This document shows positions 1-43,867 of a DNA stretch of 64,000 nucleotides, piece by piece (position 1 is the stretch's first letter; each line of letters starts with the position of its first letter). The translations under genes were made by a program, and so were the position numbers. Origin of the DNA: the human T2T-CHM13v2.0 reference genome, Homo sapiens; assembly GCF_009914755.1 (NCBI RefSeq), contig NC_060927.1; one strand, given 5' to 3'. A model generated the notes under the pieces. It was not told the DNA's origin. It did not search any database and saw only the letters and a list, made by a program, of their open reading frames with translations.

Positions 1-203
1 TGTGTGCGGTGTTAGGTATGGGCCCCTTAAGGAAATGGAAATCAACCAACCAATGGGACAGACAGACAGACAGACAGACAGAGATTCACTTGCCCAAGTG
101 TTCTGTCCTGTCCTCTGAATCCGCTTTCAAGTCGCAAGACGCTGTGAGCTCCAAGTCCACGCAGAGTCCGCCAAACGCTCCGGCCGCTGATCGGCTCCGC
201 GAA

Positions 204-272
204 GATCTGAGTACAGGCCAGCCAGGGTGGGTTTAAATAGCCTCGGGCGCAGCCTAGCAGCGGAAAGGGCGG
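204..272 (-). promoter_or_regulatory. Pol II core promoter (GC box, TATA, Inr) for a copy beyond the left edge
   Basis: GGGCGG 267-272; TATTTAAA 239-232; Inr TCAGATC with +1 A at 208, placing TATA at -31. Confidence 0.65.
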
Positions 273-736
273 ATCTTCACTCCTCCTTTCCATCAGTCAC
301 CCCCAACTTTCCCAGGCTACACCTCGTAGGAAACTGTTCTCCTGCTTTGATTTCATGCGCCACCTTTGGGACAATCTAAGAACTTACAGGTTTTCTTGGC
401 CAGATTTATTAGGAATTGTATGCACTGAAACACTGAAAACCAACTAGTGGTTCTGTGCTTCCCACGTTGTGGTTTTGACACCAGCAGCATCCTTGCCACA
501 ATCAAACCCCGGAGATCCGCAGATCTGTGTTGTAACAAGACCTCCCCCTGACCCTGAAGCATGGCAGTTGAAGAAGTCTTTCCGTGTAAGCGAAAAGACT
601 TTGAAGAAAAGGTGGAGATATGCGTTGTATAAACATTCTTTTGCTCTGGAACCACGTAGAGACTTGGGAGCCAGTTGGGTGGAGCATTCGTTGGATGAGG
701 GTGCTCGGGTTAGGAATATCAAGGTGTTTCTCCAGA

Positions 737-747
737 TAATCCAATCA
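737..747 (+). promoter_or_regulatory. DUX4-type double-homeodomain motif TAATCCAATCA (one per unit)
   Basis: Exact match to TAAYYYAATCA; also starts at 7051, 13357, 19663, 25825, 32137, 38303, 44609, 50913, 57217, 63516. Confidence 0.5.
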
Positions 748-831
748 TCTAATTAAGATTCCAGTTATGCTCATCTGTTTTAAAATTCCGTTTGGGTAAA
801 TTCTTTTAGTCAGACTGAGAATGGCAAAGCC

Positions 832-1286
832 TCAACCCCAATTTCCAGGGAGGGTGGAGAGCCTCAGGTGGAGTTGATCACCAATAGCCTATGGTTTAAC
901 CCATCATGCCTATAGAATGTGGTCTCCATCAAAACCCAAAAGGACTGGGTTCAGAGAGCTTCTGGATAACACTTCCTGGAAGGTAGTGCGCCCCTCCCCG
1001 CATGGCGGGCCCCACATTTATTTCTGAACTTTGTGCAATGTCCGCTAAAATACAACGGCAAATGTAAGTGATTCCCTGCGTGCTGTGAGCTCTTCCAGCA
1101 AATGAATGCAACTAAATCTGGGAGTGGTGGCAACCTGATTTATAGCCAGTTGCTGAGAAGCACAGGTAAAACAACGTAGGGCTTCCCATTGTTATTGGTG
1201 TGGGAGGCCTGTCTGGCGGGACTCGGCCCTTTGGAATCTAATGCTATGTCCCGGTAGATAGCGTCACCATTGAATTAGAAGACACA
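832..1286 (+). mobile_element. MER21-family LTR remnant
   Basis: Recalled consensus blocks gagttgatcaccaat, aaaacccaaaaggactgggttcagagagcttc, agaagcacaggtaaaacaac, ggtagatag..gaattagaagacac. Confidence 0.75.
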
Positions 1287-1450
1287 CATATGTGGATAAT
1301 AATCTTTCTGGTCATTTACTGCATGTCATATTTACAATATGTAATCAAATTCTTTATCCTGACCTTATGGCACCTGGGTTTAGGACCATGATTTGAACCA
1401 AACGTTGGTCTGTCACTTTCTGAGTTTGAAACTTTATTTTGCCTTTAGCG

Positions 1451-1762
1451 TTTTGCTATTGCTTTTTCGTTTTCTTTTGTTTCGTTTCGTTTCTAAGTTC
1501 TGGGGTATATGTGCAGGATGTGCAGATTTGTTACTAAGGTAAACGTGTGCCATGGTGGTTTGCTGCACCTGTCAACCCGTCACCTAGGTATTAAGCCCAG
1601 CATGCAGTAGCTGTTTTTCTTAACGCTCTGCCTCCCGAAAGGCCCCAGTGTGTGTTGTTCCCCTTCCTGTGTCCATGGGATCTCACTTTTCAGCTCCCAT
1701 TATAAGTGAGAAGGTGGCGTTTGGTTTTCTTTCCCTGGATTAGTTTGCTGACGATAATGACC
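1451..1762 (-). mobile_element. L1PA (older primate, about L1PA8-11) 3' end fragment with decayed poly(A)
   Basis: T-rich tract then taagttctggggtatatgtgcagga..ggtaaacgtgtgccatggtggtttgctgcacc..ctaggtattaagccc..ataagtgagaa, the typical L1PA 3' UTR. Confidence 0.9.
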
Positions 1763-1776
1763 ACACATCACCACTG

Positions 1777-1811
1777 TTTTTGTTTTTTAGTATAAAGAGT
1801 AGTATTTTATT
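1777..1811 (-). terminator. AATAAA poly(A) signal followed by an A-rich tract (one per unit)
   Basis: Minus strand reads AATAAAATACTACTCTTTATACTAAAAAACAAAAA. Confidence 0.45.
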
Positions 1812-2150
1812 GAATAAGATTTGCTCACAGAAAAATAAGTTTAAATCTACAACGAATGCCAGAGCCTACAGCAGAAAGCAATTTTCTCACTTTTCCACAC
1901 ACAATGGTTCCTAATAAGTGAAAAAAAAGCCATAAAATTTCATTCACAAATGTACTACTCTGTCTCAAAACACCTCACGTAATCATGCACTGTACTAAAG
2001 CCATCAGATCAGTTCTTCAGTCAGGTTAAAGAAGTATCCCTCTAATAACTGACTTTTATAATGCTATCAATATCCACTCCCAATCAGTCTGCCATTGTTA
2101 ATGGTGTACAGCATTACTGAATACAACGGAATTGATGACGCCCATATCCA

Positions 2151-2265
2151 CAGACAAACCGTGACTTATGATGGTTTGATTTATGATTTTTCAACGTTAT
2201 GATGGGTTTATTGGAATATTAGATTCGTTTCTGAGTTACACTGGGTTTATGAGTATGCGACCCTA
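2151..2265. mobile_element. MER47/Tigger5-like DNA transposon MITE remnant (one per unit)
   Basis: cagac..gacttatgatggtttgatttatgatttttcaacgttatgatgggtttat resembles MER47 internal repeats; copies start at 8465, 14771, 21077, 27239, 33551, 39717, 46023, 52327, 58618. Confidence 0.6.
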
Positions 2266-2504
2266 CACTCCAGAAACAGCTGTATAAGGAAAAACAGGTG
2301 TACCTAATAAAAATATGCTTAGTGACTTGGGATAAACCAATAGATGTTCACAAGTGATGGAGAGCCGTGAAAGAGAGATAGCGGTAAATAGATACAATAA
2401 CACAATTTTCCTGCACCGGTCGAGGATTTCCCCCAAAAAACGCAGAATGTGGGATGCACCTAAGGCATATGAAAGAGAGAGGGCAGAAGGAGTAAGAGAG
2501 AAAT

Positions 2505-2624
2505 AGGAGGAAGGAAGGAAGGAAGCAAGGAAGAAAGGAAGGAAGGAAAGAAGGAAGGCAGGACGGAAGGAAGGAAGGAAGGAAGGAAGGAAGGAAGGAA
2601 GGAAAGAAGGATGAAAGGAAGGAG
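2505..2624 (+). repeat. (GGAA)n purine microsatellite, variable length (one per unit)
   Basis: Longest pure run 10x here, 8x in most units, 9x in units 5 and 6, 11x in unit 10; copies start at 8819, 15125, 21431, 27593, 33905, 40071, 46377, 52681, 58972. Confidence 0.95.
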
Positions 2625-2678
2625 AAAACACCGGTGTTACTAAAACCCCCCAAAAAATGGTTTCCCCCTGTGGGTAAG

Positions 2679-3020
2679 CCTACAATGTGGATGAATCTTG
2701 AAAATATTGTGCTACGTGTTATGTCAGTCATAGCAGCTCACCTATTGTGCAATTCCGTTTATAGGAAATGTCCACAATATGGAAATCTATGCATATGGGA
2801 TTGATCGCACTAGGAAGTTGCTACCTAGGGCTGAGGGTCAGGGAGAGGGTTTGAGACAGAATGAGGAGTGACTAATGTCTACAGGGTCTTTCTCTGGTCG
2901 GGGCTGATAAGACGTTTTACAATGGATTGCGAATTAAAATTGAATGTGCACAACCACAGGTATACTAAAAGCCACTCAATTCATGACCTTTAATGGGGGA
3001 ATCTTACGTGGCGTAGTCTC
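2679..3020 (+). mobile_element. L1MB-type LINE 3' fragment
   Basis: ctacaatgtggatgaatcttgaaaatattgtgcta..aattccgtttataggaaatgtcca..gagtgactaatg..tatactaaaagccact matches the recalled L1MB 3' UTR. Confidence 0.8.
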
Positions 3021-3220
3021 ATGGAGACCACGGCAGACATAGTGAGAGAGAAAAAGGTGAGTAAATATCTGAAACGGAGGCAGAAACAGAGAGAATGAAA
3101 AGCCCTGTGAATGGAAGGGAGAGCGAAAAGGGAAAATGGTCCTATTTACAAATGACAGATGTGAAACTGGGGTTCACATCAACAGTGTCACTGCCAGGAA
3201 GGAGGGTCATGCTAGCCATG

Positions 3221-6202
3221 TCACCGGTAGTGTGGCCCGCAGGGACGCCGACCTGCTGGAGCGTCGTGCCAGCATGGGCTGTGGCAAGCACGTGGGCCAG
3301 CAGGAGGTTCCCGCTGCACAGCTGTGGGGTGAGGATAGACTGGGTGGTGATATCGGCCATTACAGGGGCCTCTTCTGCTGGCAAGAGTGTGACAGTAGCA
3401 AGTAGATGGACAGGCCTGCGTGTGAGGACGGAATGCAGGAGGGGTTCTTGTGCGCCTGGGTGTGGGGCCCTCACGGGAACCGTGGAGAAATGGCCAGGTA
3501 ACTGCGTCATGTGGGCTAGTAGATTGGCCAGGGCTTCGAACTGAAGGACGATAATGGGGAGTAGCTGTCAGGCCCTGGGAGTGCCTGAGTGTAAGTGGAG
3601 ATGGGTTTGGGGTCACTGAGGGATGCGTGGGAGCCATCCCTGTATAGGTACAGGTCATAGGGAGATAGTCTCGTGAGGCCTGTGAGTGTCTAGGGTTGTC
3701 CTGGGTGCCTGGGGCTGACTGTGGCAGAAATCTGGGGAAGGCTGGAGAGAAGCTGGGAGACCCAGGAGAGTCCCTGAAGGCAGGGGGTGAAGAGGTGAAA
3801 GAAATGGGGGAGGGTTGCAGTAAGGTCCGTGAGTTTGTAGGTGATTCCTGGGTGCGGGAAGCTGACTCCAGGTGAAATCTGGAGATGGTTGGAGAGTAGC
3901 TGAGAGAGACAGAAGAGTCCCTGAGGGCTGGGGGTGAGAACATGAGGGAGACGGGGGAGTAAGTCAGTGAAATTCGTGAGTTCGGTGGTGTATCGTGGGT
4001 GCCTGGAACTGACTCCAGCTGGAATCTAGAGAAGTTTTGAGAGTAGCTGAAGGAGACACAAGAGTCCCTGTGGGCTGAGGGCAAAGACCTGAGAGAGACC
4101 AGGGAGGACCTCAGTGAAGTCTGTGAGTCTGTAGGTGATTCCGGAGTGTGGGAGGCTGACTCCTGCTGAAATCTGGGCGTGGTGGGAGAGTAGCTGGGAC
4201 AGACAGGAGAGTCCCAGGGGGCTGGGGGTGAAGACATGAGAGAGACTGGGGAGTAACTCAGTGAAATTGCTGAGTTGGTTGGTGATACCTGGGTGCCTGG
4301 AACTGACCCCCGCTGAAATCTGGGCATGGTTGGAGAGTAGCTGGGACACACAGGAGAGTCCCTGAGGGCTGGGGGTGAAGACATGAGCGAGACCGGGGAG
4401 TAACTGAGTGAAACTGGTGAGTTTGGTGGTGACTCCGGGGTGCCTGGAACTGACTCCAGCTGAAATGTGGGCGTGGTTGGAGAGTAGCTGGGACAGACAG
4501 GAGAGTCCCTGAGGACTGGTGAAGACATGAGAGAGAGTGGAGAGTAATTGAGTGAAATTGGTGAGTTTGGTGGTGATTCCTGGGTGCCTGGAACTGACTC
4601 CCGCTGAAGTGTGGGCGTGGTTGGAGAGTAGCTGGGACAGACAGGCGAGTCCCTGAGGGTTGGAGATAAAGACGTGCTAGAGACTGAGGAGTAACTGAGT
4701 GAAATTGGTGAGTTTGGTGGTGATTCCGGGGTGCCTGGAACGGACTCCAGCTGAAATGTGGGCGTGGTTGGAGAGTAGCTGGGACAGACGGGAGAGTCCC
4801 TGAGGGATGGTGAAGACATGAGAGAGACTGGGGAGTAACGCAGTGAAATTGGTGAGTTTGGTGGTGATTTCTGGGTGTCTGCAACGGACTCCCGCTGAAG
4901 TGTGGGCGTGCTTGGAGAGTAGCTGGGACAGACAGGCGAGTCCCTGAGGGTTGGAGATAAAGACGTGCTGGAGACTGGGGAGTAACTCAGTGAAAGTGGT
5001 GGGCTTGGTGGTGATCCCAGGGTTCCTGGAACTGACCCGCGCTGAAATGTGGGCGTGGTTGGAGAGTAGCTGGGACAGACTGGAGGGTCCGTAAGGGCTG
5101 GGGGTGAAGACGTGAGAGAGACTGTCGAGGATCTCACTGAGGTCTGTGAGTCTGTAGGTGTTTCTGGGGTGTGGGGTACAGACTCCCGCTGAAATCTGGG
5201 CGTAGTTGGAGAGTAGCTGGGACAGACAGGAGAGTCATGGGTGGCTGGGGGTGAGCTGCTGGATGATGGCAGTAAGAACATATGGTACATTATTGATGAA
5301 TGAGGTGACTGTGAAGAATCTCCAGAGGAGGACACGGGAGAACACAATGACATGAGTGACTGTCCTGCTTGGTTAGGAAAGGGAAACGTAAAGTTGTGGA
5401 ATTCTGTTGATGATGGATGTGAGAGTGGTGAAGCCCTGCGGGATGATGTAGAGGACTTCCACATCCCTGGTGAGGAGCTGCCCCTTGGGTCTGAGTTTCT
5501 GGGAGGGGAGAGGGAGAAGCTGGGTGAGGCAGGCATGAATCTTGAGGAGTCAGGGCTGGGGGACCGCTCATATTCTCCCGAGACCTGTGAGTCTCTGGGG
5601 GACTCCTGGGTGCATGGGGCTGGCTCCCGCAGGAACCTGGGGATGGCTGGAGAGTAACTGGGAGCCACAGGAGGGTCCCTGAGGCCTGGGGGTGAAGAGA
5701 TGCAAGACACAGGGGTGGAGCAGCGTGAGGCTCGTGAGTTTGTAGGTGATTCCTGGGTGTGGGGGGCTGACTCCAGCTGAAATCTGGGGTTGTTTGGAGA
5801 GTAGCTGGGAGACACAGGAGACCCCCCGAGAGCTGGGGGTGAGCTGCTGGGTGATGGCAGTAAGAACATGTGGTATATTATTGATGAACGTGGGGACTCT
5901 GAGGAGTCCTCAGAGGAGGACACGGCAGAGCCCAATGGCTTCATTGATTGCCCATCACGGTGAGGACAGGGAAATGGGAGCTTGTGGGATTCTGGTGATG
6001 ACAGAGGTGAGTGTGGTGAAGCCCTAGGGGATGGTGAATGGTAGTTCCGGATCCCTGGTGAGGAGCTTCCCCTTAAGCCTGAGTTTCTGAGAGGGGAGAG
6101 GGAGAAGCTGGGTGAGGCTCGCATGGACCTTGGGGTGTCCGTGCTGGGGGACCGTTCATAAGAAGAGCCAGACAAGACCCTACTGTTCTTAGGTGCAGAC
6201 AT
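3221..6202 (-). CDS. 993-aa Ser/Pro/Thr-rich disordered protein with Pol II CTD-like heptad repeats, copy 1
   Basis: Uninterrupted 2982-bp ORF; ATG has A at -3 (aatcATG); first AUG after the TATA/Inr; diverged 48/49-aa repeats all stay in frame. Confidence 0.7.
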   Translation of the reverse strand: MSAPKNSRVLSGSSYERSPSTDTPRSMRASPSFSLSPLRNSGLRGSSSPGIRNYHSPSPRASPHSPLSSPESHKLPFPCPHRDGQSMKPLGSAVSSSEDSSESPRSSIIYHMFLLPSPSSSPPALGGSPVSPSYSPNNPRFQLESAPHTQESPTNSRASRCSTPVSCISSPPGLRDPPVAPSYSPAIPRFLREPAPCTQESPRDSQVSGEYERSPSPDSSRFMPASPSFSLSPPRNSDPRGSSSPGMWKSSTSSRRASPLSHPSSTEFHNFTFPFPNQAGQSLMSLCSPVSSSGDSSQSPHSSIMYHMFLLPSSSSSPPATHDSPVCPSYSPTTPRFQRESVPHTPETPTDSQTSVRSSTVSLTSSPPALTDPPVCPSYSPTTPTFQRGSVPGTLGSPPSPPLSLSYSPVSSTSLSPTLRDSPVCPSYSPSTPTLQRESVADTQKSPPNSPISLRYSPVSLMSSPSLRDSPVCPSYSPTTPTFQLESVPGTPESPPNSPISLSYSSVSSTSLSPTLRDSPVCPSYSPTTPTLQRESVPGTQESPPNSPISLNYSPLSLMSSPVLRDSPVCPSYSPTTPTFQLESVPGTPESPPNSPVSLSYSPVSLMSSPPALRDSPVCPSYSPTMPRFQRGSVPGTQVSPTNSAISLSYSPVSLMSSPPAPWDSPVCPSYSPTTPRFQQESASHTPESPTDSQTSLRSSLVSLRSLPSAHRDSCVSFSYSQNFSRFQLESVPGTHDTPPNSRISLTYSPVSLMFSPPALRDSSVSLSYSPTISRFHLESASRTQESPTNSRTLLQPSPISFTSSPPAFRDSPGSPSFSPAFPRFLPQSAPGTQDNPRHSQASRDYLPMTCTYTGMAPTHPSVTPNPSPLTLRHSQGLTATPHYRPSVRSPGQSTSPHDAVTWPFLHGSREGPTPRRTRTPPAFRPHTQACPSTCYCHTLASRRGPCNGRYHHPVYPHPTAVQREPPAGPRACHSPCWHDAPAGRRPCGPHYR
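3670..5255 (-). repeat. 147/144-bp tandem array (ACRO1-like), 11 monomers, inside the CDS
   Basis: Anchor Tyr/Phe codon at 5213, 5066, 4919, 4775, 4628, 4484, 4337, 4190, 4043, 3896, 3749 (spacing 147 or 144); two more monomers near 5580-5860. Confidence 0.9.
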
Positions 6203-6263
6203 GATTAGGAAACCTGCAGCTCCCAGGGGCCCCCACTAATGTTCTAACTCGCAGAAGGAAGGA

Positions 6264-6277
6264 GTGTGTGTGCGTGT

Positions 6278-6309
<32 letters not shown>

Positions 6310-6394
6310 TTGTGGGTGTGCGGTGTGAGGTATGGGCCCCTTAAGGAAATGGAAATCAACCAACCAATGGGACAGACAGACAGACAGACAGACA
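6264..6394 (+). repeat. (TG)n and (GACA)6 microsatellites in the predicted 5' leader (one pair per unit)
   Basis: Imperfect TG/CG run 6264-6327; GACA x6 at 6371-6394. Confidence 0.95.
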
Positions 6395-6517
6395 GAGATT
6401 CACTTGCCCAAGTGTTCTGTCCTGTCCTCTGAATCCGCTTTCAAGTCGCAAGACGCTGTGAGCTCCAAGTCCACGCAGAGTCCGCCAAACGCTCCGGCCG
6501 CTGATCCGCTCCGCGAA

Positions 6518-6586
6518 GATCTGAGTACAGGCCAGCCAGGGTGGGTTTAAATAGCCTCGGGCGCAGCCTAGCAGCGGAAAGGGCGG
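6518..6586 (-). promoter_or_regulatory. Core promoter, copy 1 (predicted TSS 6522)
   Basis: TATTTAAA 6553-6546, Inr, GC box. Confidence 0.65.
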
Positions 6587-7145
6587 ATCTTCACTCCTCC
6601 TTTCCATCAGTCACCCCCAACTTTCCCAGGCTACACCTCGTAGGAAACTGTTCTCCTGCTTTGATTTCATGCGCCACCTTTGGGACAATCTAAGAACTTA
6701 CAGGTTTTCTTGGCCAGATTTATTAGGAATTGTATGCACTGAAACACTGAAAACCAACTAGTGGTTCTGTGCTTCCCACGTTGTGGTTTTGACACCAGCA
6801 GCATCCTTGCCACAATCAAACCCCGGAGATCCGCAGATCTGTGTTGTAACAAGACCTCCCCCTGACCCTGAAGCATGGCAGTTGAAGAAGTCTTTCCGTG
6901 TAAGCGAAAAGACTTTGAAGAAAAGGTGGAGATATGCGTTGTATAAACATTCTTTTGCTCTGGAACCACGTAGAGACTTGGGAGCCAGTTGGGTGGAGCA
7001 TTCGTTGGATGAGGGTGCTCGGGTTAGGAATATCAAGGTGTTTCTCCAGATAATCCAATCATCTAATTAAGATTCCAGTTATGCTCATCTGTTTTAAAAT
7101 TCCGTTTGGGTAAATTCTTTTAGTCAGACTGAGAATGGCAAAGCC

Positions 7146-7600
7146 TCAACCCCAATTTCCAGGGAGGGTGGAGAGCCTCAGGTGGAGTTGATCACCAATA
7201 GCCTATGGTTTAACCCATCATGCCTATAGAATGAGGTCTCCATCAAAACCCAAAAGGACTGGGTTCAGAGAGCTTCTGGATAACACTTCCTGGAAGGTAG
7301 TGCGCCCCTCCCCGCATGGCGGGCCCCACATTTATTTCTGAACTTTGTGCAATGTCCGCTAAAATACAACGGCAAATGTAAGTGATTCCCTGCGTGCTGT
7401 GAGCTCTTCCAGCAAATGAATGCAACTAAATCTGGGAGTGGTGGCAACCTGATTTATAGCCAGTTGCTGAGAAGCACAGGTAAAACAACGTAGGGCTTCC
7501 CATTGTTATTGGTGTGGGAGGCCTGTCTGGCGGGACTCGGCCCTTTGGAATCTAATGCTATGTCCCGGTAGATAGCGTCACCATTGAATTAGAAGACACA
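7146..7600 (+). mobile_element. MER21-family LTR remnant
   Basis: Copy of 832-1286. Confidence 0.75.
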
Positions 7601-7764
7601 CATATGTGGAGAATAATCTTTCTGGTCATTTACTGCATGTCATATTTACAATATGTAATCAAATTCTTTATCCTGACCTTATGGCACCTGGGTTTAGGAC
7701 CATGATTTGAACCAAACGTTGGTCTGTCACTTTCTGAGTTTGAAACTTTATTTTGCCTTTAGCG

Positions 7765-8076
7765 TTTTGCTATTGCTTTTTCGTTTTCTTTTGTTTCGTT
7801 TCGTTTCTAAGTTCTGGGGTATATGTGCAGGATGTGCAGATTTGTTACTAAGGTAAACGTGTGCCATGGTGGTTTGCTGCACCTGTCAACCCGTCACCTA
7901 GGTATTAAGCCCAGCATGCAGTAGCTGTTTTTCTTAACGCTCTGCCTCCCGAAAGGCCCCAGTGTGTGTTGTTCCCCTTCCTGTGTCCATGGGATCTCAC
8001 TTTTCAGCTCCCATTATAAGTGAGAAGGTGGCGTTTGGTTTTCTTTCCCTGGATTAGTTTGCTGACGATAATGACC
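7765..8076 (-). mobile_element. L1PA 3' fragment
   Basis: Copy of 1451-1762. Confidence 0.9.
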
Positions 8077-8984
8077 ACACATCACCACTGTTTTTGTTTT
8101 TTAGTATAAAGAGTAGTATTTTATTGAATAAGATTTGCTCACAGAAAAATAAGTTTAAATCTACAACGAATGCCAGAGCCTACAGCAGAAAGCAATTTTC
8201 TCACTTTTCCACACACAATGGTTCCTAATAAGTGAAAAAAAAGCCATAAAATTTCATTCACAAATGTACTACTCTGTCTCAAAACACCTCACGTAATCAT
8301 GCACTGTACTAAAGCCATCAGATCAGTTCTTCAGTCAGGTTAAAGAAGTATCCCTCTAATAACTGACTTTTATAATGCTATCAATATCCACTCCCAATCA
8401 GTCTGCCATTGTTAATGGTGTACAGCATTACTGAATACAACGGAATTGATGACGCCCATATCCACAGACAAACCGTGACTTATGATGGTTTGATTTATGA
8501 TTTTTCAACGTTATGATGGGTTTATTGGAATATTAGATTCGTTTCTGAGTTACACTGGGTTTATGAGTATGCGACCCTACACTCCAGAAACAGCTGTATA
8601 AGGAAAAACAGGTGTACCTAATAAAAATATGCTTAGTGACTTGGGATAAACCAATAGATGTTCACAAGTGATGGAGAGCCGTGAAAGAGAGATAGCGGTA
8701 AATAGTTACAATAACACAATTTTCCTGCACCTGTCGAGGATTTCCCCCAAAAAACGCAGAATGTGGGATGCACCTAAGGCATATGAAAGAGAGAGGGCAG
8801 AAGGAGTAAGAGAGAAATAGGAGGAAGGAAGGAAGGAAGCAAGGAAGAAAGGAAGGAAGGAAAGAAGGAAGGTAGGACGGAAGGAAGGAAGGAAGGAAGG
8901 AAGGAAGGAAAGAAGGATGAAAGGAAGGAGAAAACACCGGTGTTACTAAAACCCCCCAAAAAATGGTTTCCCCCTGTGGGTAAG

Positions 8985-9326
8985 CCTACAATGTGGATGA
9001 ATCTTGAAAATATTGTGCTACGTGTTATGTCAGTCATAGCAGCTCACCTATTGTGCAATTCCGTTTATAGGAAATGTCCACAATATGGAAATCTATGCAT
9101 ATGGGATTGATCGCACTAGGTAGTTGCTACCTGGGGCTGAGGGTCAGGGAGAGGGTTTGAGACAGAATGAGGAGTGACTAATGTCTACAGGGTCTTTCTC
9201 TGGTCGGGGCTGATAAGACGTTTTACAATGGATTGCGAATTAAAATTGAATGTGCACAACCACAGGTATACTAAAAGCCACTCAATTCATGACCTTTAAT
9301 GGGGGAATCTTACGTGGCGTAGTCTC
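8985..9326 (+). mobile_element. L1MB 3' fragment
   Basis: Copy of 2679-3020. Confidence 0.8.
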
Positions 9327-9526
9327 ATGGAGACCACGGCAGACATAGTGAGAGAGAAAAAGGTGAGTAAATATCTGAAACGGAGGCAGAAACAGAGAGA
9401 ATGAAAAGCCCTGTGAATGGAAGGGAGAGCGAAAAGGGAAAATGGTCCTATTTACAAATGACAGATGTGAAACTGGGGTTCACATCAACAGTGTCACTGC
9501 CAGGAAGGAGGGTCATGCTAGCCATG

Positions 9527-12508
9527 TCACCGGTAGTGTGGCCCGCAGGGACGCCGACCTGCTGGAGCGTCGTGCCAGCATGGGCTGTGGCAAGCACGTG
9601 GGCCAGCAGGAGGTTCCCGCTGCACAGCTGTGGGGTGAGGATAGACTGGGTGGTGATATCGGCCATTACAGGGGCCTCTTCTGCTGGCAAGAGTGTGACA
9701 GTAGCAAGTAGATGGACAGGCCTGCGTGTGAGGACGGAATGCAGGAGGGGTTCTTGTGCGCCTGGGTGTGGGGCCCTCACGGGAACCGTGGAGAAATGGC
9801 CAGGTAACTGCGTCATGTGGGCTAGTAGATTGGCCAGGGCTTCGAACTGAAGGACGATAATGGGGAGTAGCTGTCAGGCCCTGGGAGTGCCTGAGTGTAA
9901 GTGGAGATGGGTTTGGGGTCACTGAGGGATGTGTGGGAGCCATCCCTGTATAGGTACAGGTCATAGGGAGATAGTCTCGTGAGGCCTGTGAGTGTCTAGG
10001 GTTGTCCTGGGTGCCTGGGGCTGACTGTGGCAGAAATCTGGGGAAGGCTGGAGAGAAGCTGGGAGACCCAGGAGAGTCCCTGAAGGCAGGGGGTGAAGAG
10101 GTGAAAGAAATGGGGGAGGGTTGCAGTAAGGTCCGTGAGTTTGTAGGTGATTCCTGGGTGCGGGAAGCTGACTCCAGGTGAAATCTGGAGATGGTTGGAG
10201 AGTAGCTGAGAGAGACAGAAGAGTCCCTGAGGGCTGGGGGTGAGAACATGAGGGAGACGGGGGAGTAAGTCAGTGAAATTCGTGAGTTCGGTGGTGTATC
10301 GTGGGTGCCTGGAACTGACTCCAGCTGGAATCTAGAGAAGTTTTGAGAGTAGCTGAAGGAGACACAAGAGTCCCTGTGGGCTGAGGGCAAAGACCTGAGA
10401 GAGACCAGGGAGGACCTCAGTGAAGTCTGTGAGTCTGTAGGTGATTCCGGAGTGTGGGAGGCTGACTCCCGCTGAAATCTGGGCGTGGTGGGAGAGTAGC
10501 TGGGACAGACAGGAGAGTCCCAGGGGGCTGGGGGTGAAGACATGAGAGAGACTGGGGAGTAACTCAGTGAAATTGCTGAGTTGGTTGGTGATACCTGGGT
10601 GCCTGGAACTGACCCCCGCTGAAATCTGGGCATGGTTGGAGAGTAGCTGGGACACACAGGAGAGTCCCTGAGGGCTGGGGGTGAAGACATGAGCGAGACC
10701 GGGGAGTAACTGAGTGAAACTGGTGAGTTTGGTGGTGACTCCGGGGTGCCTGGAACTGACTCCAGCTGAAATGTGGGCGTGGTTGGAGAGTAGCTGGGAC
10801 AGACAGGAGAGTCCCTGAGGACTGGTGAAGACATGAGAGAGAGTGGAGAGTAATTGAGTGAAATTGGTGAGTTTGGTGGTGATTCCTGGGTGCCTGGAAC
10901 TGACTCCCGCTGAAGTGTGGGCGTGGTTGGAGAGTAGCTGGGACACACAGGAGAGTCCCTGAGGGTTGGAGATAAAGACGTGCTAGAGACTGAGGAGTAA
11001 CTGAGTGAAATTGGTGAGTTTGGTGGTGATTCCGGGGTGCCTGGAACGGACTCCAGCTGAAATGTGGGCGTGGTTGGAGAGTAGCTGGGACAGACGGGAG
11101 AGTCCCTGAGGGATGGTGAAGACATGAGAGAGACTGGGGAGTAACGCAGTGAAATTGGTGAGTTTGGTGGTGATTTCTGGGTGTCTGCAACGGACTCCCG
11201 CTGAAGTGTGGGCGTGCTTGGAGAGTAGCTGGGACAGACAGGCGAGTCCCTGAGGGTTGGAGATAAAGACGTGCTGGAGACTGGGGAGTAACTCAGTGAA
11301 AGTGGTGGGCTTGGTGGTGATCCCAGGGTTCCTGGAACTGACCCGCGCTGAAATGTGGGCGTGGTTGGAGAGTAGCTGGGACAGACTGGAGGGTCCGTAA
11401 GGGCTGGGGGTGAAGACGTGAGAGAGACTGGCGAGGATCTCACTGAGGTCTGTGAGTTTGTAGGTGTTTCTGGGGTGTGGGGTACAGACTCCCGCTGAAA
11501 TCTGGGCGTAGTTGGAGAGTAGCTGGGACAGACAGGAGAGTCATGGGTGGCTGGGGGTGAGCTGCTGGATGATGGCAGTAAGAACATATGGTACATTATT
11601 GATGAATGAGGTGACTGTGAAGAATCTCCAGAGGAGGACACGGGAGAACACAATGACATGAGTGACTGTCCTGCTTGGTTAGGAAAGGGAAACGTAAAGT
11701 TGTGGAATTCTGTTGATGATGGATGTGAGAGTGGTGAAGCCCTGCGGGATGATGTAGAGGACTTCCACATCCCTGGTGAGGAGCTGCCCCTTGGGTCTGA
11801 GTTTCTGGGAGGGGAGAGGGAGAAGCTGGGTGAGGCAGGCATGAATCTTGAGGAGTCAGGGCTGGGGGACCGCTCATATTCTCCCGAGACCTGTGAGTCT
11901 CTGGGGGACTCCTGGGTGCATGGGGCTGACTCCCGCAGGAACCTGGGGATGGCTGGAGAGTAACTGGGAGCCACAGGAGGGTCCCTGAGGCCTGGGGGTG
12001 AAGAGATGCAAGACACAGGGGTGGAGCAGCGTGAGGCTCGTGAGTTTGTAGGTGATTCCTGGGTGTGGGGGGCTGACTCCAGCTGAAATCTGGGGTTGTT
12101 TGGAGAGTAGCTGGGAGACACAGGAGACCCCCCGAGAGCTGGGGGTGAGCTGCTGGGTGATGGCAGTAAGAACATGTGGTATATTATTGATGAACGTGGG
12201 GACTCTGAGGAGTCCTCAGAGGAGGACACGGCAGAGCCCAATGGCTTCATTGATTGCCCATCACGGTGAGGACAGGGAAATGGGAGCTTGTGGGATTCTG
12301 GTGATGACAGAGGTGAGTGTGGTGAAGCCCTAGGGGATGGTGAATGGTAGTTCCGGATCCCTGGTGAGGAGCTTCCCCTTAAGCCTGAGTTTCTGAGAGG
12401 GGAGAGGGAGAAGCTGGGTGAGGCTCGCATGGACCTTGGGGTGTCCGTGCTGGGGGACCGTTCATAAGAAGAGCCAGACAAGACCCTACTGTTCTTAGGT
12501 GCAGACAT
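9527..12508 (-). CDS. 993-aa CTD-like repeat protein, copy 2
   Basis: Intact ORF, near-identical to copy 1. Confidence 0.7.
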   Translation of the reverse strand: MSAPKNSRVLSGSSYERSPSTDTPRSMRASPSFSLSPLRNSGLRGSSSPGIRNYHSPSPRASPHSPLSSPESHKLPFPCPHRDGQSMKPLGSAVSSSEDSSESPRSSIIYHMFLLPSPSSSPPALGGSPVSPSYSPNNPRFQLESAPHTQESPTNSRASRCSTPVSCISSPPGLRDPPVAPSYSPAIPRFLRESAPCTQESPRDSQVSGEYERSPSPDSSRFMPASPSFSLSPPRNSDPRGSSSPGMWKSSTSSRRASPLSHPSSTEFHNFTFPFPNQAGQSLMSLCSPVSSSGDSSQSPHSSIMYHMFLLPSSSSSPPATHDSPVCPSYSPTTPRFQRESVPHTPETPTNSQTSVRSSPVSLTSSPPALTDPPVCPSYSPTTPTFQRGSVPGTLGSPPSPPLSLSYSPVSSTSLSPTLRDSPVCPSYSPSTPTLQRESVADTQKSPPNSPISLRYSPVSLMSSPSLRDSPVCPSYSPTTPTFQLESVPGTPESPPNSPISLSYSSVSSTSLSPTLRDSPVCPSYSPTTPTLQRESVPGTQESPPNSPISLNYSPLSLMSSPVLRDSPVCPSYSPTTPTFQLESVPGTPESPPNSPVSLSYSPVSLMSSPPALRDSPVCPSYSPTMPRFQRGSVPGTQVSPTNSAISLSYSPVSLMSSPPAPWDSPVCPSYSPTTPRFQRESASHTPESPTDSQTSLRSSLVSLRSLPSAHRDSCVSFSYSQNFSRFQLESVPGTHDTPPNSRISLTYSPVSLMFSPPALRDSSVSLSYSPTISRFHLESASRTQESPTNSRTLLQPSPISFTSSPPAFRDSPGSPSFSPAFPRFLPQSAPGTQDNPRHSQASRDYLPMTCTYTGMAPTHPSVTPNPSPLTLRHSQGLTATPHYRPSVRSPGQSTSPHDAVTWPFLHGSREGPTPRRTRTPPAFRPHTQACPSTCYCHTLASRRGPCNGRYHHPVYPHPTAVQREPPAGPRACHSPCWHDAPAGRRPCGPHYR
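9976..11561 (-). repeat. ACRO1-like 147/144-bp array, 11 monomers
   Basis: As unit 1. Confidence 0.9.
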
Positions 12509-12823
12509 GATTAGGAAACCTGCAGCTCCCAGGGGCCCCCACTAATGTTCTAACTCGCAGAAGGAAGGAGTGTGTGTGCGTGTGTGAGTGTGCGTGTGTG
12601 TGTGTGTGTGTGTGTTTGCGTGTGTGCGGTGTGAGGTATGGGCCCCTTAAGGAAATGGAAATCAACCAACCAATGGGACAGACAGACAGACAGACAGACA
12701 GAGATTCACTTGCCCAAGTGTTCTGTCCTGTCCTCTGAATCCGCTTCCAAGTCGCAAGACGCTGTGAGCTCCAAGTCCACGCAGAGTCCGCCAAACGCTG
12801 CGGCCGCTGATCCGCTCCGCGAA

Positions 12824-12892
12824 GATCTGAGTACAGGCCAGCCAGGGTGGGTTTAAATAGCCTCGGGCGCAGCCTAGCAGCGGAAAGGGCGG
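12824..12892 (-). promoter_or_regulatory. Core promoter, copy 2 (predicted TSS 12828)
   Basis: TATA 12859-12852; GC box GGGCGGAGC. Confidence 0.65.
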
Positions 12893-13451
12893 AGCTTCAC
12901 TCCTCCTTTCCATCAGTCACCCCCAACTTTCCCAGGCTACACCTCGTAGGAAACTGTTCTCCTGCTTTGATTTCATGCGCCACCTTTGGGACAATCTAAG
13001 AACTTACAGGTTTTCTTGGCCAGATTTATTAGGAATTGTATGCACTGAAACACTGAAAACCAACTAGTGGTTCTGTGCTTCCCACGTTGTGGTTTTGACA
13101 CCAGCAGCATCCTTGCCACAATCAAACCCCGGAGATCCGCAGATCTGTGTTGTAACAAGACCTCCCCCTGACCCTGAAGCATGGCAGTTGAAGAAGTCTT
13201 TCCGTGTAAGCGAAAAGACTTTGAAGAAAAGGTGGAGATATGCGTTGTATAAACATTCTTTTGCTCTGGAACCACGTAGAGACTTGGGAGCCAGTTGGGT
13301 GGAGCATTCGTTGGATGAGGGTGCTCGGGTTAGGAATATCAAGGTGTTTCTCCAGATAATCCAATCATCTAATTAAGATTCCAGTTATGCTCATCTGTTT
13401 TAAAATTCCGTTTGGGTAAATTCTTTTAGTCAGACTGAGAATGGCAAACCC

Positions 13452-13906
13452 TCAACCCCAATTTCCAGGGAGGGTGGAGAGCCTCAGGTGGAGTTGATCA
13501 CCAATAGCCTATGGTTTAACCCATCATGCCTATAGAATGAGGTCTCCATCAAAACCCAAAAGGACTGGGTTCAGAGAGCTTCTGGATAACACTTCCTGGA
13601 AGGTAGTGCACCCCTCCCCGCATGGCGGGCCCCACATTTATTTCTGAACTTTGTGCAATGTCCGCTAAAATACAACGGCAAATGTAAGTGTTTCCCTGCG
13701 TGCTGTGAGCTCTTCCAGCAAATGAATGCAACTAAATCTGGGAGTGGTGGCAACCTGAATTATAGCCAGTTGCTGAGAAGCACAGGTAAAACAACGTAGG
13801 GCTTCCCATTGTTATTGGTGTGGGAGGCCTGTCTGGCGGGACTCGGCCCTTTGGAATCTAATGCTATGTCCCGGTAGATAGCGTCACCATTGAATTAGAA
13901 GACACA
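13452..13906 (+). mobile_element. MER21-family LTR remnant
   Basis: Copy of 832-1286. Confidence 0.75.
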
Positions 13907-14070
13907 CATATGTGGAGAATAATCTTTCTGGTCATTTACTGCATGTCATATTTACAATATGTAATCAAATTCTTTATCCTGACCTTATGGCACCTGGGTT
14001 TAGGACCATGATTTGAACCAAACGTTGGTCTGTCACTTTCTGAGTTTGAAACTTTATTTTGCCTTTAGCG

Positions 14071-14382
14071 TTTTGCTATTGCTTTTTCGTTTTCTTTTGT
14101 TTCGTTTCGTTTCTAAGTTCTGGGGTATATGTGCAGGATGTGCAGATTTGTTACTAAGGTAAACGTGTGCCATGGTGGTTTGCTGCACCTGTCAACCCGT
14201 CACCTAGGTATTAAGCCCAGCATGCAGTAGCTGTTTTTCTTAACGCTCTGCCTCCCGAAAGGCCCCAGTGTGTGTTGTTCCCCTTCCTGTGTCCATGGGA
14301 TCTCACTTTTCAGCTCCCATTATAAGTGAGAAGGTGGCGTTTGGTTTTCTTTCCCTGGATTAGTTTGCTGACGATAATGACC
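14071..14382 (-). mobile_element. L1PA 3' fragment
   Basis: Copy of 1451-1762. Confidence 0.9.
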
Positions 14383-15290
14383 ACACATCACCACTGTTTT
14401 TGTTTTTTAGTATAAAGAGTAGTATTTTATTGAATAAGATTTGCTCACAGAAAAATAAGCTTAAATCTACAATGAATGCCAGACCCTACAGCAGAAAGCA
14501 ATTTTCTCACTTTTCCACACACAATGGTTCCTACTAAGTGAAAAAAAAGCCATAAAATTTCATTCACAAATGTACTACTCTGTCTCAAAACATCTCACGT
14601 AATCATGCACTGTACTAAAGCCATCAGATCAGTTCTTCAGTCAGGTTAAAGAAGTATCCCTCTAATAACTGACTTTTATAATGCTATCAATATCCACTCC
14701 CAATCAGTCTGCCATTGTTAATGGTGTACAGCATTACTGAATACAACGGAATTGATGACGCCCATATCCACAGACAAACCGTGACTTATGATGGTTTGAT
14801 TTATGATTTTTCAACGTTATGATGGGTTTATTGGAATATTAGATTCGTTTCTGAGTTACACTGGGTTTATGAGTATGCGACCCTACACTCCAGAAACAGC
14901 TGTATAAGGAAAAACAGGTGTACCTAATAAAAATATGCTTAGTGACTTGGGATAAACCAATAGATGTTCACAAGTGATGGAGAGCCGTGAAAGAGAGATA
15001 GCGGTAAATAGTTACAATAACACAATTTTCCTGCACCTGTCGAGGATTTCCCCCAAAAAACGCAGAATGTGGGATGCACCTAAGGCATATGAAAGAGAGA
15101 GGGCAGAAGGAGTAAGAGAGAAATAGGAGGAAGGAAGGAAGGAAGCAAGGAAGAAAGGAAGGAAGGAAAGAAGGAAGGTAGGACGGAAGGAAGGAAGGAA
15201 GGAAGGAAGGAAGGAAAGAAGGATGAAAGGAAGGAGAAAACACCGGTGTTACTAAAACCCCCCAAAAAATGGTTTTCCCCTGTGGGTAAG

Positions 15291-15632
15291 CCTACAATGT
15301 GGATGAATCTTGAAAATATTTTGCTACGTGATATGTCAGTCATAGCAGCTCACCTATTGTGCAATTCCGTTTATAGGAAATGTCCACAATATGGAAATCT
15401 ATGCATATGGGATTGATCGCACTAGGTAGTTGCTACCTGGGGCTGAGGGTCAGGGAGAGGGTTTGAGACAGAATGAGGAGTGACTAATGTCTACAGGGTC
15501 TTTCTCTGGTCAGGGGTGATAAGACGTTTTACAATGGATTGCGAATTAAAATTGAATGTGCACAACCACAGGTATACTAAAAGCCACTCAATTCATGACC
15601 TTTAATGGGGGAATCTTACGTGGCGTAGTCTC
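15291..15632 (+). mobile_element. L1MB 3' fragment
   Basis: Copy of 2679-3020. Confidence 0.8.
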
Positions 15633-15832
15633 ATGGAGACCACGGCAGACATAGTGAGAGAGAAAAAGGTGAGTAAATATCTGAAACGGAGGCAGAAACA
15701 GAGAGAATGAAAAGCCCTGTGAATGGAAGGGAGAGCGAAAAGGGAAAATGGTCCTATTTACAAATGACAGATGTGAAACTGGGGTTCACATCAACAGTGT
15801 CACTGCCAGGAAGGAGGGTCATGCTAGCCATG

Positions 15833-18814: not shown

Positions 18815-18889
18815 GATTAGGAAACCTGCAGCTCCCAGGGGCCCCCACTAATGTTCTAACTCGCAGAAGGAAGGAGTGTGTGTGCGTGT

Positions 18890-18921
<32 letters not shown>

Positions 18922-19129
18922 TTGTGTGTGTGCGGTGTGAGGTATGGGCCCCTTAAGGAAATGGAAATCAACCAACCAATGGGACAGACAGACAGACAGA
19001 CAGACAGAGATTCACTTGCCCAAGTGTTCTGTCCTGTCCTCTGAATCCGCTTTCAAGTCGCAAGACGCTGTGAGCTCCAAGTCCACGCAGAGTCCGCCAA
19101 ACGCTCCGGCCGCTGATCCGCTCCGCGAA

Positions 19130-19198
19130 GATCTGAGTACAGGCCAGCCAGGGTGGGTTTAAATAGCCTCGGGCGCAGCCTAGCAGCGGAAAGGGCGG
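19130..19198 (-). promoter_or_regulatory. Core promoter, copy 3 (predicted TSS 19134)
   Basis: Same motifs. Confidence 0.65.
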
Positions 19199-19757
19199 AG
19201 CTTCACTCCTCCTTTCCATCAGTCACCCCCAACTTTCCCAGGCTACACCTCGTAGGAAACTGTTCTCCTGCTTTGATTTCATGCGCCACCTTTGGGACAA
19301 TCTAAGAACTTACAGGTTTTCTTGGCCAGATTTATTAGGAATTGTATGCACTGAAACACTGAAAACCAACTAGTGGTTCTGTGCTTCCCACGTTGTGGTT
19401 TTGACACCAGCAGCATCCTTGCCACAATCAAACCCCGGAGATCCGCAGATCTGTGTTGTAACAAGACCTCCCCCTGACCCTGAAACATGGCAGTTGAAGA
19501 AGTCTTTCCGTGTAAGCGAAAAGACTTTGAAGAAAAGGTGGAGATATGCGTTGTATAAACATTCTTTTGCTCTGGAACCACGTAGAGACTTGGGAGCCAG
19601 TTGGGTGGAGCATTCGTTGGATGAGGGTGCTCGGGTTAGGAATATCAAGGTGTTTCTCCAGATAATCCAATCATCTAATTAAGATTCCAGTTATGCTCAT
19701 CTGTTTTAAAATTCCGTTTGGGTAAATTCTTTTAGTCAGACTGAGAATGGCAAAGCC

Positions 19758-20212
19758 TCAACCCCAATTTCCAGGGAGGGTGGAGAGCCTCAGGTGGAGT
19801 TGATCACCAATAGCCTATGGTTTAACCCATCATGCCTATAGAATGTGGTCTCCATCAAAACCCAAAAGGACTGGGTTCAGAGAGCTTCTGGATAACACTT
19901 CCTGGAAGGTAGTGCGCCCCTCCCCGCATGGCGGGCCCCACATTTATTTCTGAACTTTGTGCAATGTCCGCTAAAATACAACGGCAAATGTAAGTGATTC
20001 CCTGCGTGCTGTGAGCTCTTCCAGCAAATGAATGCAACTAAATCTGGGAGTGGTGGCAACCTGATTTATAGCCAGTTGCTGAGAAGCACAGGTAAAACAA
20101 CGTAGGGCTTCCCATTGTTATTGGTGTGGGAGGCCTGTCTGGCGGGACTCGGCCCTTTGGAATCTAATGCTATGTCCCGGTAGATAGCGTCACCATTGAA
20201 TTAGAAGACACA
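19758..20212 (+). mobile_element. MER21-family LTR remnant
   Basis: Copy of 832-1286. Confidence 0.75.
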
Positions 20213-20376
20213 CATATGTGGAGAATAATCTTTCTGGTCATTTACTGCATGTCATATTTACAATATGTAATCAAATTCTTTATCCTGACCTTATGGCACC
20301 TGGGTTTAGGACCATGATTTGAACCAAACGTTGGTCTGTCACTTTCTGAGTTTGAAACTTTATTTTGCCTTTAGCG

Positions 20377-20688
20377 TTTTGCTATTGCTTTTTCGTTTTC
20401 TTTTGTTTCGTTTCGTTTCTAAGTTCTGGGGTATATGTGCAGGATGTGCAGATTTGTTACTAAGGTAAACGTGTGCCATGGTGGTTTGCTGCACCTGTCA
20501 ACCCGTCACCTAGGTATTAAGCCCAGCATGCAGTAGCTGTTTTTCTTAACGCTCTGCCTCCCGAAAGGCCCCAGTGTGTGTTGTTCCCCTTCCTGTGTCC
20601 ATGGGATCTCACTTTTCAGCTCCCATTATAAGTGAGAAGGTGGCGTTTGGTTTTCTTTCCCTGGATTAGTTTGCTGACGATAATGACC
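20377..20688 (-). mobile_element. L1PA 3' fragment
   Basis: Copy of 1451-1762. Confidence 0.9.
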
Positions 20689-21938: not shown

Positions 21939-22138
21939 ATGGAGACCACGGCAGACATAGTGAGAGAGAAAAAGGTGAGTAAATATCTGAAACGGAGGCA
22001 GAAACAGAGAGAATGAAAAGCCCTGTGAATGGAAGGGAGAGCGAAAAGGGAAAATGGTCCTATTTACAAATGACAGATGTGAAACTGGGGTTCACATCAA
22101 CAGTGTCACTGCCAGGAAGGAGGGTCATGCTAGCCATG

Positions 22139-37529: not shown

Positions 37530-37561
<32 letters not shown>

Positions 37562-43835: not shown

Positions 43836-43867
<32 letters not shown>

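What the first reader, a model, noticed from the sequence alone, without database searches (positions are those of the whole stretch)
6203..6586. Textbook GC box-TATA-Inr promoter points at the ORF, and the ORF ATG is the first AUG
Seen on the minus strand: GGGCGG at about -60, TATTTAAA starting at -31 (6553), and Inr TCAGATC matching YYANWYY with +1 at 6522, in locally CpG-rich DNA. The 320-nt leader (6522-6203) has no ATG, and the start context has A at -3. The motifs are kept in all 11 promoter copies. The GC box reads GGGCGGATC in the first two and the better Sp1 match GGGCGGAGC in the rest. This is evidence, independent of the ORF, that the unit is a real Pol II gene.
Basis: partly seen in the sequence, partly recalled or inferred. 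Interest (0 to 1): 0.72.

Follow-up and report, generated by a model that had tools for sequence, protein, structure and literature searches.

The report
Hidden gene inside ACRO satellite repeats
Each 6.3-kb unit of this known human 'satellite' array carries promoter motifs, a match to the binding motif of the embryo factor DUX4 and a long intact reading frame also found in monkeys, so it is likely an overlooked multi-copy early-embryo gene whose predicted protein resembles the repetitive tail of RNA polymerase II.

Summary
The motifs are real. TATTTAAA (6553, -31), Inr (+1 6522) and an ATG-free leader occur as stated; the GC box (6581-6586) reads GGGCGG on the plus strand, not the minus. The triple is uncommon by chance (about 2% per unit), but the copies are 99.6% identical, so 11 of 11 adds nothing. 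The array is the known ACRO composite repeat. Each unit has the parts of a gene: a perfect DUX4 motif at -539..-529, a likely 5'-UTR intron, an intact ORF in 10 of 10 complete units (993 or 945 aa) and an ATTAAA signal. Database proteins from marmoset, colobus and more distant unnamed sources start at the same Met in the same frame. The 147-bp monomer encodes seven degenerate heptads in Pol II CTD register. Against: amino acids change at nearly neutral rates, broken relatives exist, and no 5'-end, binding or translation data could be seen. Print already notes the CTD likeness, DUX4-linked 4-cell expression and a 'putative protein coding gene'; I found no description of the promoter, gene anatomy or frame conservation. 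Verdict: likely a DUX4-driven multi-copy gene for a free-standing CTD-like protein (about 65%).

The parts
7051..7061 (+). Perfect match (TAATCCAATCA) to the DUX4 double-homeobox core motif TAAYYYAATCA, -539..-529 from +1; likely at the edge of the MER21B LTR fragment (inferred)
   Evidence: once per unit, 11 of 11; 11 of 3000 shuffles of the upstream kb; motif as printed in PMC3616921; published primer marking the MER21 side matches 7032-7051
6581..6586 (+). GC box GGGCGG (CCGCCC on the transcribed strand), -64..-59
6546..6553 (-). TATA-like box TATTTAAA, first T at -31, one mismatch to TATAWAWR
   Evidence: a titi monkey gene model runs over it without a gap and is compatible with an AT-rich box
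6518..6524 (-). Initiator TCAGATC, predicted +1 at 6522
6404..6522 (-). Predicted non-coding exon 1 (119 nt), CpG-rich
   Evidence: prediction only
6244..6403 (-). Predicted 160-nt 5'-UTR intron: donor CAA|GTGAAT, acceptor TTAG|AAC, holds TCTG and CA microsatellites
   Evidence: 9 of 13 variable leader sites and 3 of 3 leader indels lie here, Fisher p 0.26 for the sites
3221..6202 (-). ORF, 993 aa, 23% Ser, 18% Pro, 17 YSP; intact in 10 of 10 complete units (8 x 993 aa, 2 x 945 aa by a 144-bp in-frame loss)
5135..6160 (-). Two ancient copies, 588 nt apart, of the N-terminal block (aa 15-160 and 211-356), 80% identical over 438 nt with no gap
3699..5254 (-). ACRO1 147-bp satellite array (10.6 copies); each monomer encodes 49 aa = 7 degenerate heptads in CTD register
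3224..3745 (-). Non-repetitive basic Cys/His/Pro C-terminal region (aa 820-993) with conserved CPSTCYCHTLA motif at 3412-3380
2989..2994 (-). ATTAAA poly(A) signal 227 nt after the stop, followed by a GT-rich stretch; 0 of 251 sites vary between stop and 2970
1..64000 (-). Head-to-tail array of ACRO composite units (6162-6314 bp); TATA first bases at 239, 6553, 12859, 19165, 25327, 31639, 37805, 44111, 50415, 56719, 63018
   Evidence: published ACRO primers match 10 units exactly and 11 units with 2 mismatches

Best explanation
The motifs sit at the head of every 6.3-kb ACRO repeat unit and are likely the core promoter of a multi-copy protein-coding gene, predicted to be switched on by DUX4 in the cleavage-stage embryo and to make a disordered 993-aa protein built from degenerate RNA polymerase II CTD-like heptads. 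Inferred steps: DUX4 binds the motif at 7051-7061; Sp/KLF, TBP and TFIID use the GC box, TATA and Inr to start at 6522; intron 6403-6244 is removed, leaving a 160-nt ATG-free leader; the single-exon ORF is read from 6202; the RNA is polyadenylated after ATTAAA 2994. The ACRO1 'satellite' would then be an in-frame coding repeat that expanded inside an older, shorter gene. In somatic cells the array would be kept off by methylation and by the elongation block that ACRO1 RNA imposes in cis. The most likely action of the protein (untested) is as a substrate and low-affinity decoy for CTD kinases and CTD-binding factors during genome activation. Shown: motifs, ORF, frame and start shared with other primates, heptad periodicity. 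From print: family-level expression. Inferred: start site, DUX4 binding, splicing, translation, function.
For: Promoter triple is the only one in a unit and points at the ORF. One perfect DUX4 motif per unit, 11 of 3000 shuffles. Print: DUX4 raises ACRO1 RNA (PMC8990217, PMC11467316, citing Hendrickson 2017); ACRO1 peaks at the 4-cell stage (PMC6545021); hypomethylated in sperm, rising in early embryos (PMC5832720). ORF 993 codons against median 239, maximum 613 in 1000 shuffles; the other sense frames have 12 and 17 stops. About 201 substitutions between internal repeats give 0 stops (6.3 expected, P 0.002) and one gap, of 3 nt; dN/dS 0.73-0.82 in the ORF frame against 1.0-1.6 in the others. 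Same Met and frame in P0024 (90%), P0008 (86-89%), colobus P0025 (82%), marmoset P0005 (72-74%) and, from an internal Met, P0020 (46%). Over 512 human-marmoset codons neutral simulation gives 6-8 stops, 1 of 400 and 0 of 400 runs stop-free. 19 of 76 C-terminal columns invariant in five sequences, 8 expected. Heptad period in monomers: 0 of 5000 (protein) and 0 of 2000 (DNA) shuffles reach it; CTD-type [ST]P spacing also in aa 1-160 (p 0.0006) and P0020 (p 0.004). 13 of 14 PDB matches are RPB1 chains.
Against: No 5'-end, ChIP, ribosome or peptide data seen. RefSeq annotates nothing in the window. Variants among the ten units are 11 non-synonymous to 5 synonymous, as neutrality predicts (28% synonymous sites); coding identity to New World monkeys (70-76%) is little above that of the translated non-coding exon 1 (65%). 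Database proteins are stop-free by construction, which inflates the cross-species test; several relatives leave the frame (P0003, P0004, P0009, P0011, P0019) and the marmoset model has about 62 off-frame residues near aa 605-670. ACRO1 in this orientation blocks Pol II elongation in HeLa reporters and no stable HeLa transcript was found (PMC7714431). No exact YSPTSPS; Tyr1 in 13 of 56 and Thr4 in 10 of 56 heptads. A strong acceptor at 6087 could skip the ATG. Expression data are for the whole family, unstranded in the passages I saw, and may come from other chromosomes.
Confidence: 0.65

Rival explanations
1. The promoter is real and DUX4-responsive, but the product is a non-coding or untranslated RNA; the ORF is a relic of a once-functional gene carried along by recent array homogenisation.
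For: Near-neutral amino-acid change; frameshifted relatives; ACRO1 RNA binds Pol II and acts as RNA (PMC7714431); units are 99.6% identical so one intact founder explains 10 of 10.
Against: No stop and no frameshift across about 201 substitutions between internal repeats measured at DNA level; all length changes inside the ORF are multiples of 3; same start and frame in several lineages; clustered C-terminal conservation.
Confidence: 0.2
2. The motifs are incidental. ACRO RNA in embryos starts in the MER21B LTR or runs through the array from scattered or bidirectional starts, as described for other DUX4-induced satellites.
For: TATA+Inr alone arises in 45-65% of shuffled units; the DUX4 motif is 530 bp away and likely LTR-derived; promoter plus upstream variation (4 of 631 sites) is not significantly below the spacer (p 0.11); divergence of exon 1 from titi monkey looks neutral.
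Against: The full triple is rare, has canonical -31 spacing, lies in the unit's only CpG-rich patch and faces an ATG-free leader; TATA-to-Inr spacing is kept without a gap in titi monkey.
Confidence: 0.1
3. The promoter is real but splicing from donor 6403 goes to acceptor 6087 or 3069, so the long ORF is cut or intronic and the mature RNA is short or encodes something else.
For: Acceptor 6087 has a 17 of 17 pyrimidine tract and 3069 a 14 of 17 tract with a donor at 3007 behind it, against 13 of 17 at 6244.
Against: Met1 and the residues before 6087 are kept in 5 of the homologues that reach the N terminus; C-rich coding repeats create such tracts passively; the pyrimidine tract before the ATG is recognisable in distant P0020.
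Confidence: 0.05

Closest known systems
ACRO composite repeat / ACRE with the ACRO1 147-bp satellite (PMC2588610; PMC7714431; 10.1101/2021.07.12.451456; 10.64898/2025.12.22.696095)
   Same: This is that element: 147-bp monomers, about 6-kb unit, published primers match, chr3 pericentromeric signal reported by FISH.
   Different: These papers treat it as a satellite or transposon composite. [quoted passage not shown] None of the passages I read describes a promoter, DUX4 site, full ORF or cross-species frame.
RPB1 (POLR2A) C-terminal domain
   Same: Ser/Pro-rich heptad period, [ST]P spacing at 0, 3, 4 modulo 7, 17 YSP; only clear PDB matches; automatic 'RPB1' names on the marmoset and colobus records.
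   Different: No polymerase domains, no exact YSPTSPS, heptads grouped in a 7-heptad higher-order unit, and an unrelated Cys/His C-terminal region. Works-like candidate, not an RPB1.
Macrosatellite-encoded and tandem cleavage-stage genes (DUX4 in D4Z4; USP17L, TAF11L, PRAMEF, ZSCAN4-type DUX4 targets; list recalled)
   Same: One compact gene per repeat unit, short non-coding first exon, DUX4 motif upstream, fast protein evolution, burst at genome activation.
   Different: The coding region itself is what is annotated as a satellite; no Pfam family (0 of 7 proteins scanned); arrays lie on acrocentric arms and pericentromeres.
Focused TATA-Inr Pol II core promoter with upstream GC box
   Same: TATA-like box at -31, Inr at +1, GC box at -60.
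   Different: One TATA mismatch; use not shown.

Membership tests
TATA-Inr Pol II core promoter | TATAWAWR-like box about 30 nt upstream of +1 | tested here: met
   TATTTAAA, one mismatch, first T at -31
TATA-Inr Pol II core promoter | Initiator consensus at +1 | tested here: met
   fits YYANWYY and BBCABW (consensus strings recalled)
TATA-Inr Pol II core promoter | Motifs conserved above background | tested here: inconclusive
   0 of 64 core sites vary but P 0.73 by chance for the motif bases; titi monkey model compatible and ungapped, DNA not seen
TATA-Inr Pol II core promoter | Capped 5' ends at the site, TBP binding, reporter activity | not testable with these tools
   no CAGE, ChIP or reporter data available
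ACRO composite (ACRE) | About 6-kb unit with long 147-bp ACRO1 array, about 332-bp spacer and 256-bp short array | tested here: met
   332+256 = 588 equals the internal period seen; description in PMC7714431 supplement
ACRO composite (ACRE) | Published ACRO primers match | tested here: met
ACRO composite (ACRE) | L1PA10, MER21B and L1MB8 fragments | not testable with these tools
   no Dfam or RepeatMasker library; names from 10.64898/2025.12.22.696095
Direct DUX4 target gene | TAAYYYAATCA motif near the start | tested here: met
   7051-7061, 0 mismatches
Direct DUX4 target gene | DUX4 binding and induction of this locus | not testable with these tools
   only family-level statements citing Hendrickson 2017; that paper was not held
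Protein-coding gene | Reading frame kept beyond neutral expectation | tested here: met
   cross-species part biased by database selection
Protein-coding gene | dN/dS clearly below 1 | tested here: inconclusive
   0.73-0.82 between internal repeats, neutral among units; no orthologous DNA available
Protein-coding gene | Translation shown | not testable with these tools
   no ribosome profiling or proteomics access
RPB1 / POLR2A | Polymerase catalytic domains | tested here: not met
   no Pfam match; PDB matches confined to the CTD region
RPB1 / POLR2A | Consensus YSPTSPS heptads | tested here: not met
   0 exact heptads
RPB1 / POLR2A | Seven-residue period in CTD register | tested here: met
RPB1 / POLR2A | Descent from the POLR2A 3' end | tested here: inconclusive
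   by eye 16 of 45 ungapped identities between 6229-6095 and the RPB1 linker printed, but 0 hits in four HMMER searches

The most novel reading that the evidence does not exclude
The ACRO 'satellite', the repeat most enriched on ape acrocentric arms, is an amplified gene family descended from the 3' end of POLR2A: DUX4 fires hundreds of kilobases of copies at the 4-cell stage to flood the nucleus with a free-standing CTD mimic that titrates or concentrates CTD kinases and readers and so tunes human genome activation; it would be re-expressed in FSHD muscle and some cancers, and its copy number varies between relatives.
Probability: 0.22. Interest if true: 0.92.

Novelty: new variant of a known kind. 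Interest (0 to 1): 0.75.

Why it matters
If right, a repeat that current telomere-to-telomere papers still list as satellite DNA is a multi-copy human gene missing from the annotation here, expressed at the moment of embryonic genome activation and in DUX4-driven disease. [quoted passage not shown] Copy-number changes between generations (PMC12746033) would become gene-dosage changes. The predictions (start base, splice junction, peptides) can be checked in public data at once.

Tried and rejected
Pfam: no family for the ORF or six homologues. Rfam on 200-7200: two matches at E 0.7-1.0, far under gathering scores, chance. AlphaFold2 on a 4-sequence alignment of the short relative P0020: mean pLDDT 40, no fold, so no fold search was run. 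PDB search with P0020: three fungal kinase matches at E 0.05, rejected. Atlas: top feature match for P0005 is a 993-aa, 70-member cluster auto-named 'putative extensin-like' at score 0.89, a lead only; structure matches TM under 0.4. Linker-level descent from POLR2A: seen by eye, not recovered by HMMER. Conservation across 11 copies as evidence: rejected as non-independent. Fewer variable sites in the ORF (16 of 2982) than in the spacer (32 of 2130; p 0.0006): not used as proof of selection, since synonymous sites are equally quiet (5 in 842) and conversion tracts link sites. Long identical runs in the C terminus: significant in 1 of 6 pairwise tests only. Bacterial promoter scan: irrelevant. 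Literature search was too loose and gave nothing relevant. EWS-FLI1 as driver through the GGAA tract: PMC11060741 reports ACRO1 not substantially changed by EWS:FLI1 in HeLa. No complex prediction was run.

Full report
Observation. On the minus strand TATTTAAA begins at 6553 and TCAGATC at 6524, putting the Inr A at 6522, 31 nt from the first T. The first ATG after 6522 is the ORF start at 6202, with A at -3 and T at +4, in 10 of the 10 copies whose ORF lies in the window; leaders are 318-322 nt. The GC box is at 6581-6586 but reads GGGCGG on the plus strand (11 plus, 0 minus). The 200 bp around it are the most CpG-rich of the unit (60% GC, o/e 0.85). In one unit, 1 of 20 TATA-like sites has both an Inr at the right distance and a GC box: this one. 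Shuffles give the triple in 5-6 of 300 units and in 5 of 3000 for the kilobase upstream of the ATG; TATA plus Inr alone is common; the ATG-free leader occurs in 104 of 5000 shuffles. These criteria were chosen after seeing the site, and the consensus strings are recalled. The ten complete units are 99.4-99.9% identical, so presence in all copies is not independent support (P 0.73).

What the array is. The window is a head-to-tail array of 6162-6314-bp units, each with 10.6 copies of a 147-bp monomer at 3699-5254. Primers published for the ACRO 6-kb repeat (PMC2588610, passages read) match 10 units exactly and 11 units with two mismatches; that paper reports FISH signal on chromosomes 3, 4 and the acrocentrics. 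So this is the ACRO composite. A 2026 version of a preprint on ape acrocentrics (10.64898/2025.12.22.696095, passages) calls it the repeat class most enriched on acrocentric arms, made of ACRO1, L1PA10, MER21B and L1MB8, and does not call it a gene in the six passages that name it.

Gene anatomy. It abuts the primer that marks the MER21 side, so it is likely LTR-derived (inference). The best donor after +1 is at 6403 and a plausible acceptor at 6244, giving a predicted 160-nt intron and a 160-nt spliced leader without ATG. The ORF runs 6202-3221, 993 aa, intact in 10 of 10 units; two have lost 144 bp in frame. ATTAAA lies at 2994-2989 with a GT-rich stretch behind it. Competing acceptors exist at 6087 and 3069.

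Is the frame under selection? The C-rich strand is poor in stops, but shuffles reach a median of 239 and at most 613 codons, and the other two sense frames have 12 and 17 stops. Two internal 438-nt copies differ at 89 sites with no gap, and ten monomers show at least 112 changes with a single 3-nt gap; no stop arises where 6.3 are expected (P 0.002), and dN/dS is 0.73-0.82 in the ORF frame against 1.0-1.6 in the others. Three searches of the large protein set and one of the representative set returned 25 distinct proteins. Named ones are marmoset P0005 (832 aa, 'RPB1'), colobus P0025 ('RPB1-like'), titi monkey P0009 (hypothetical) and a yeast RPB1. P0002, P0004, P0005, P0008, P0015, P0024 and P0025 begin at the same Met; identity in non-repeat regions is 90% (P0024), 86-89% (P0008), 82% (colobus) and 72-74% (marmoset) with at most one one-residue gap. 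Neutral simulation over 512 human-marmoset codons gives 6-8 stops, with 1 of 400 and 0 of 400 runs stop-free. P0020, unnamed and 46% identical, is a colinear short form of about 305 aa with one module and the same C terminus, and its predicted extension lines up with the human leader just before the ATG; the gene is therefore likely older than the satellite. In the C-terminal region 19 of 76 columns are invariant across five sequences, 8 expected if independent, centred on CPSTCYCHTLA. The titi monkey model also runs, 200 residues after its C-terminal match, over the promoter (6554-6411) for 48 codons without a gap, compatible with a kept TATA and Inr and with a tandem layout in that species.

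Against. Protein databases hold only stop-free strings, which biases the cross-species test. P0003, P0004, P0009, P0011 and P0019 leave the frame, and the marmoset model has about 62 residues in another frame. Among the ten units 11 of 16 ORF variants change the residue, as neutrality predicts. The translated non-coding exon 1 is 65% identical to titi monkey, little below the coding regions, so the protein evolves almost neutrally in sequence while keeping its frame. PMC7714431 (main text parts 1-3 of 5 and supplement part 1 of 3 read) found that ACRO1 RNA in this orientation blocks elongation in HeLa reporters and detected no stable HeLa transcript. RefSeq has no model in the window.

The protein. 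It is 23% Ser and 18% Pro, with 17 YSP and no exact YSPTSPS; no Pfam family; the short relative folds to nothing (pLDDT 40). The 49-residue monomer is seven heptads: identity at lags 7, 14, 21 is 0.217 against 0.119 (0 of 5000 shuffles) and at DNA lags 21, 42, 63 is 0.40 against 0.29 (0 of 2000); Ser2, Pro3 and Ser5 positions match in 35, 31 and 32 of 56 heptads, Tyr1 in 13. CTD-type [ST]P spacing extends to aa 1-160 (p 0.0006) and P0020 (p 0.004) but not to the C terminus (p 0.41). In the PDB 13 of 14 matches are RPB1 chains, best E 5e-10, with heavy composition bias. By eye 6229-6095 matches the RPB1 linker printed at 16 of 45 positions without a gap, but four HMMER searches did not recover it, so descent from POLR2A stays open.

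Expression in print. ACRO1 RNA peaks at the 4-cell stage (PMC6545021, passages), is low in germ and somatic cells, rises in early embryos and is hypomethylated in sperm (PMC5832720, passage), and rises with DUX4 (PMC8990217, PMC11467316 and 10.64898/2025.12.22.696056, passages citing Hendrickson 2017; the original was not held). All are family-level counts.

Novelty. Known: the repeat, the CTD likeness of the monomer and the idea of a CTD origin (PMC7714431), DUX4-linked expression, automatic primate gene models, and one sentence calling it a putative protein-coding gene (PMC12746033, passages and two supplementary files searched; its Supplementary Figure 11 was not visible). Not found in the library: ACRO1 with promoter and TATA (0 papers), extensin-like with T2T-CHM13 (0), RPB1-like with human and embryo (5 unrelated listings), ACRO with DUX4 and long-read (4 listings, assembly or annotation papers), CTD-like satellite terms (1 listing, not read). 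Subscription journals, bioRxiv supplements and gene annotation files of other chromosomes were out of reach, so a named model may exist.

Verdict. The promoter motifs are real and modestly beyond chance; their value is as one part of a complete gene anatomy. Best reading, 0.65: a DUX4-driven, multi-copy, protein-coding gene for a disordered CTD-like protein, whose coding repeat is annotated as the ACRO1 satellite. Non-coding relic 0.2, incidental motifs 0.1, ORF-skipping splicing 0.05. New variant of a known kind; interest 0.75.

Noticed in passing
window 3069-3007, minus strand: A strong acceptor (3069) and a good donor (3007) bracket a possible 61-nt exon in the 3' region; splicing from a weak donor at the stop codon (3224) would extend the ORF by 25 residues to a stop inside ATTAAA.
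   Followed up: partly
window 2508-2623 and each unit: GGAA microsatellite of about 29 units; ACRO1 RNA was reported in plasma vesicles of metastatic Ewing sarcoma patients, but EWS:FLI1 did not change it in HeLa (PMC11060741).
   Followed up: partly
window about 1480-1740, minus strand: Stretch that looks like an L1 3' end (recalled resemblance; the preprint lists L1PA10 in the unit).
   Followed up: no
P0002 (unnamed record, 2350-bp contig): Intact 652-aa version from the same Met to the same last residue; its contig length is close to the 2369 nt that the predicted spliced mRNA would have with that ORF. Could be a cDNA; not checkable here.
   Followed up: no
Atlas cluster: A 70-member cluster with a 993-aa representative, auto-named 'putative extensin-like', has exactly this ORF's length; automatic models of other copies probably exist.
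   Followed up: partly
LOC124906202, -47309..-43177, minus strand (outside the window): Unnamed 4.1-kb pseudogene model on the same strand; might be another ACRO unit. Not testable here.
   Followed up: no
window 7059-7069, plus strand: A second, overlapping DUX4-like half match (2 mismatches) directly beside the perfect site.
   Followed up: no
units at TATA 25327 and 37805: These two non-adjacent units share the 144-bp in-frame deletion and many spacer variants with each other and with unit 12859, a sign of higher-order structure or conversion in the array.
   Followed up: no
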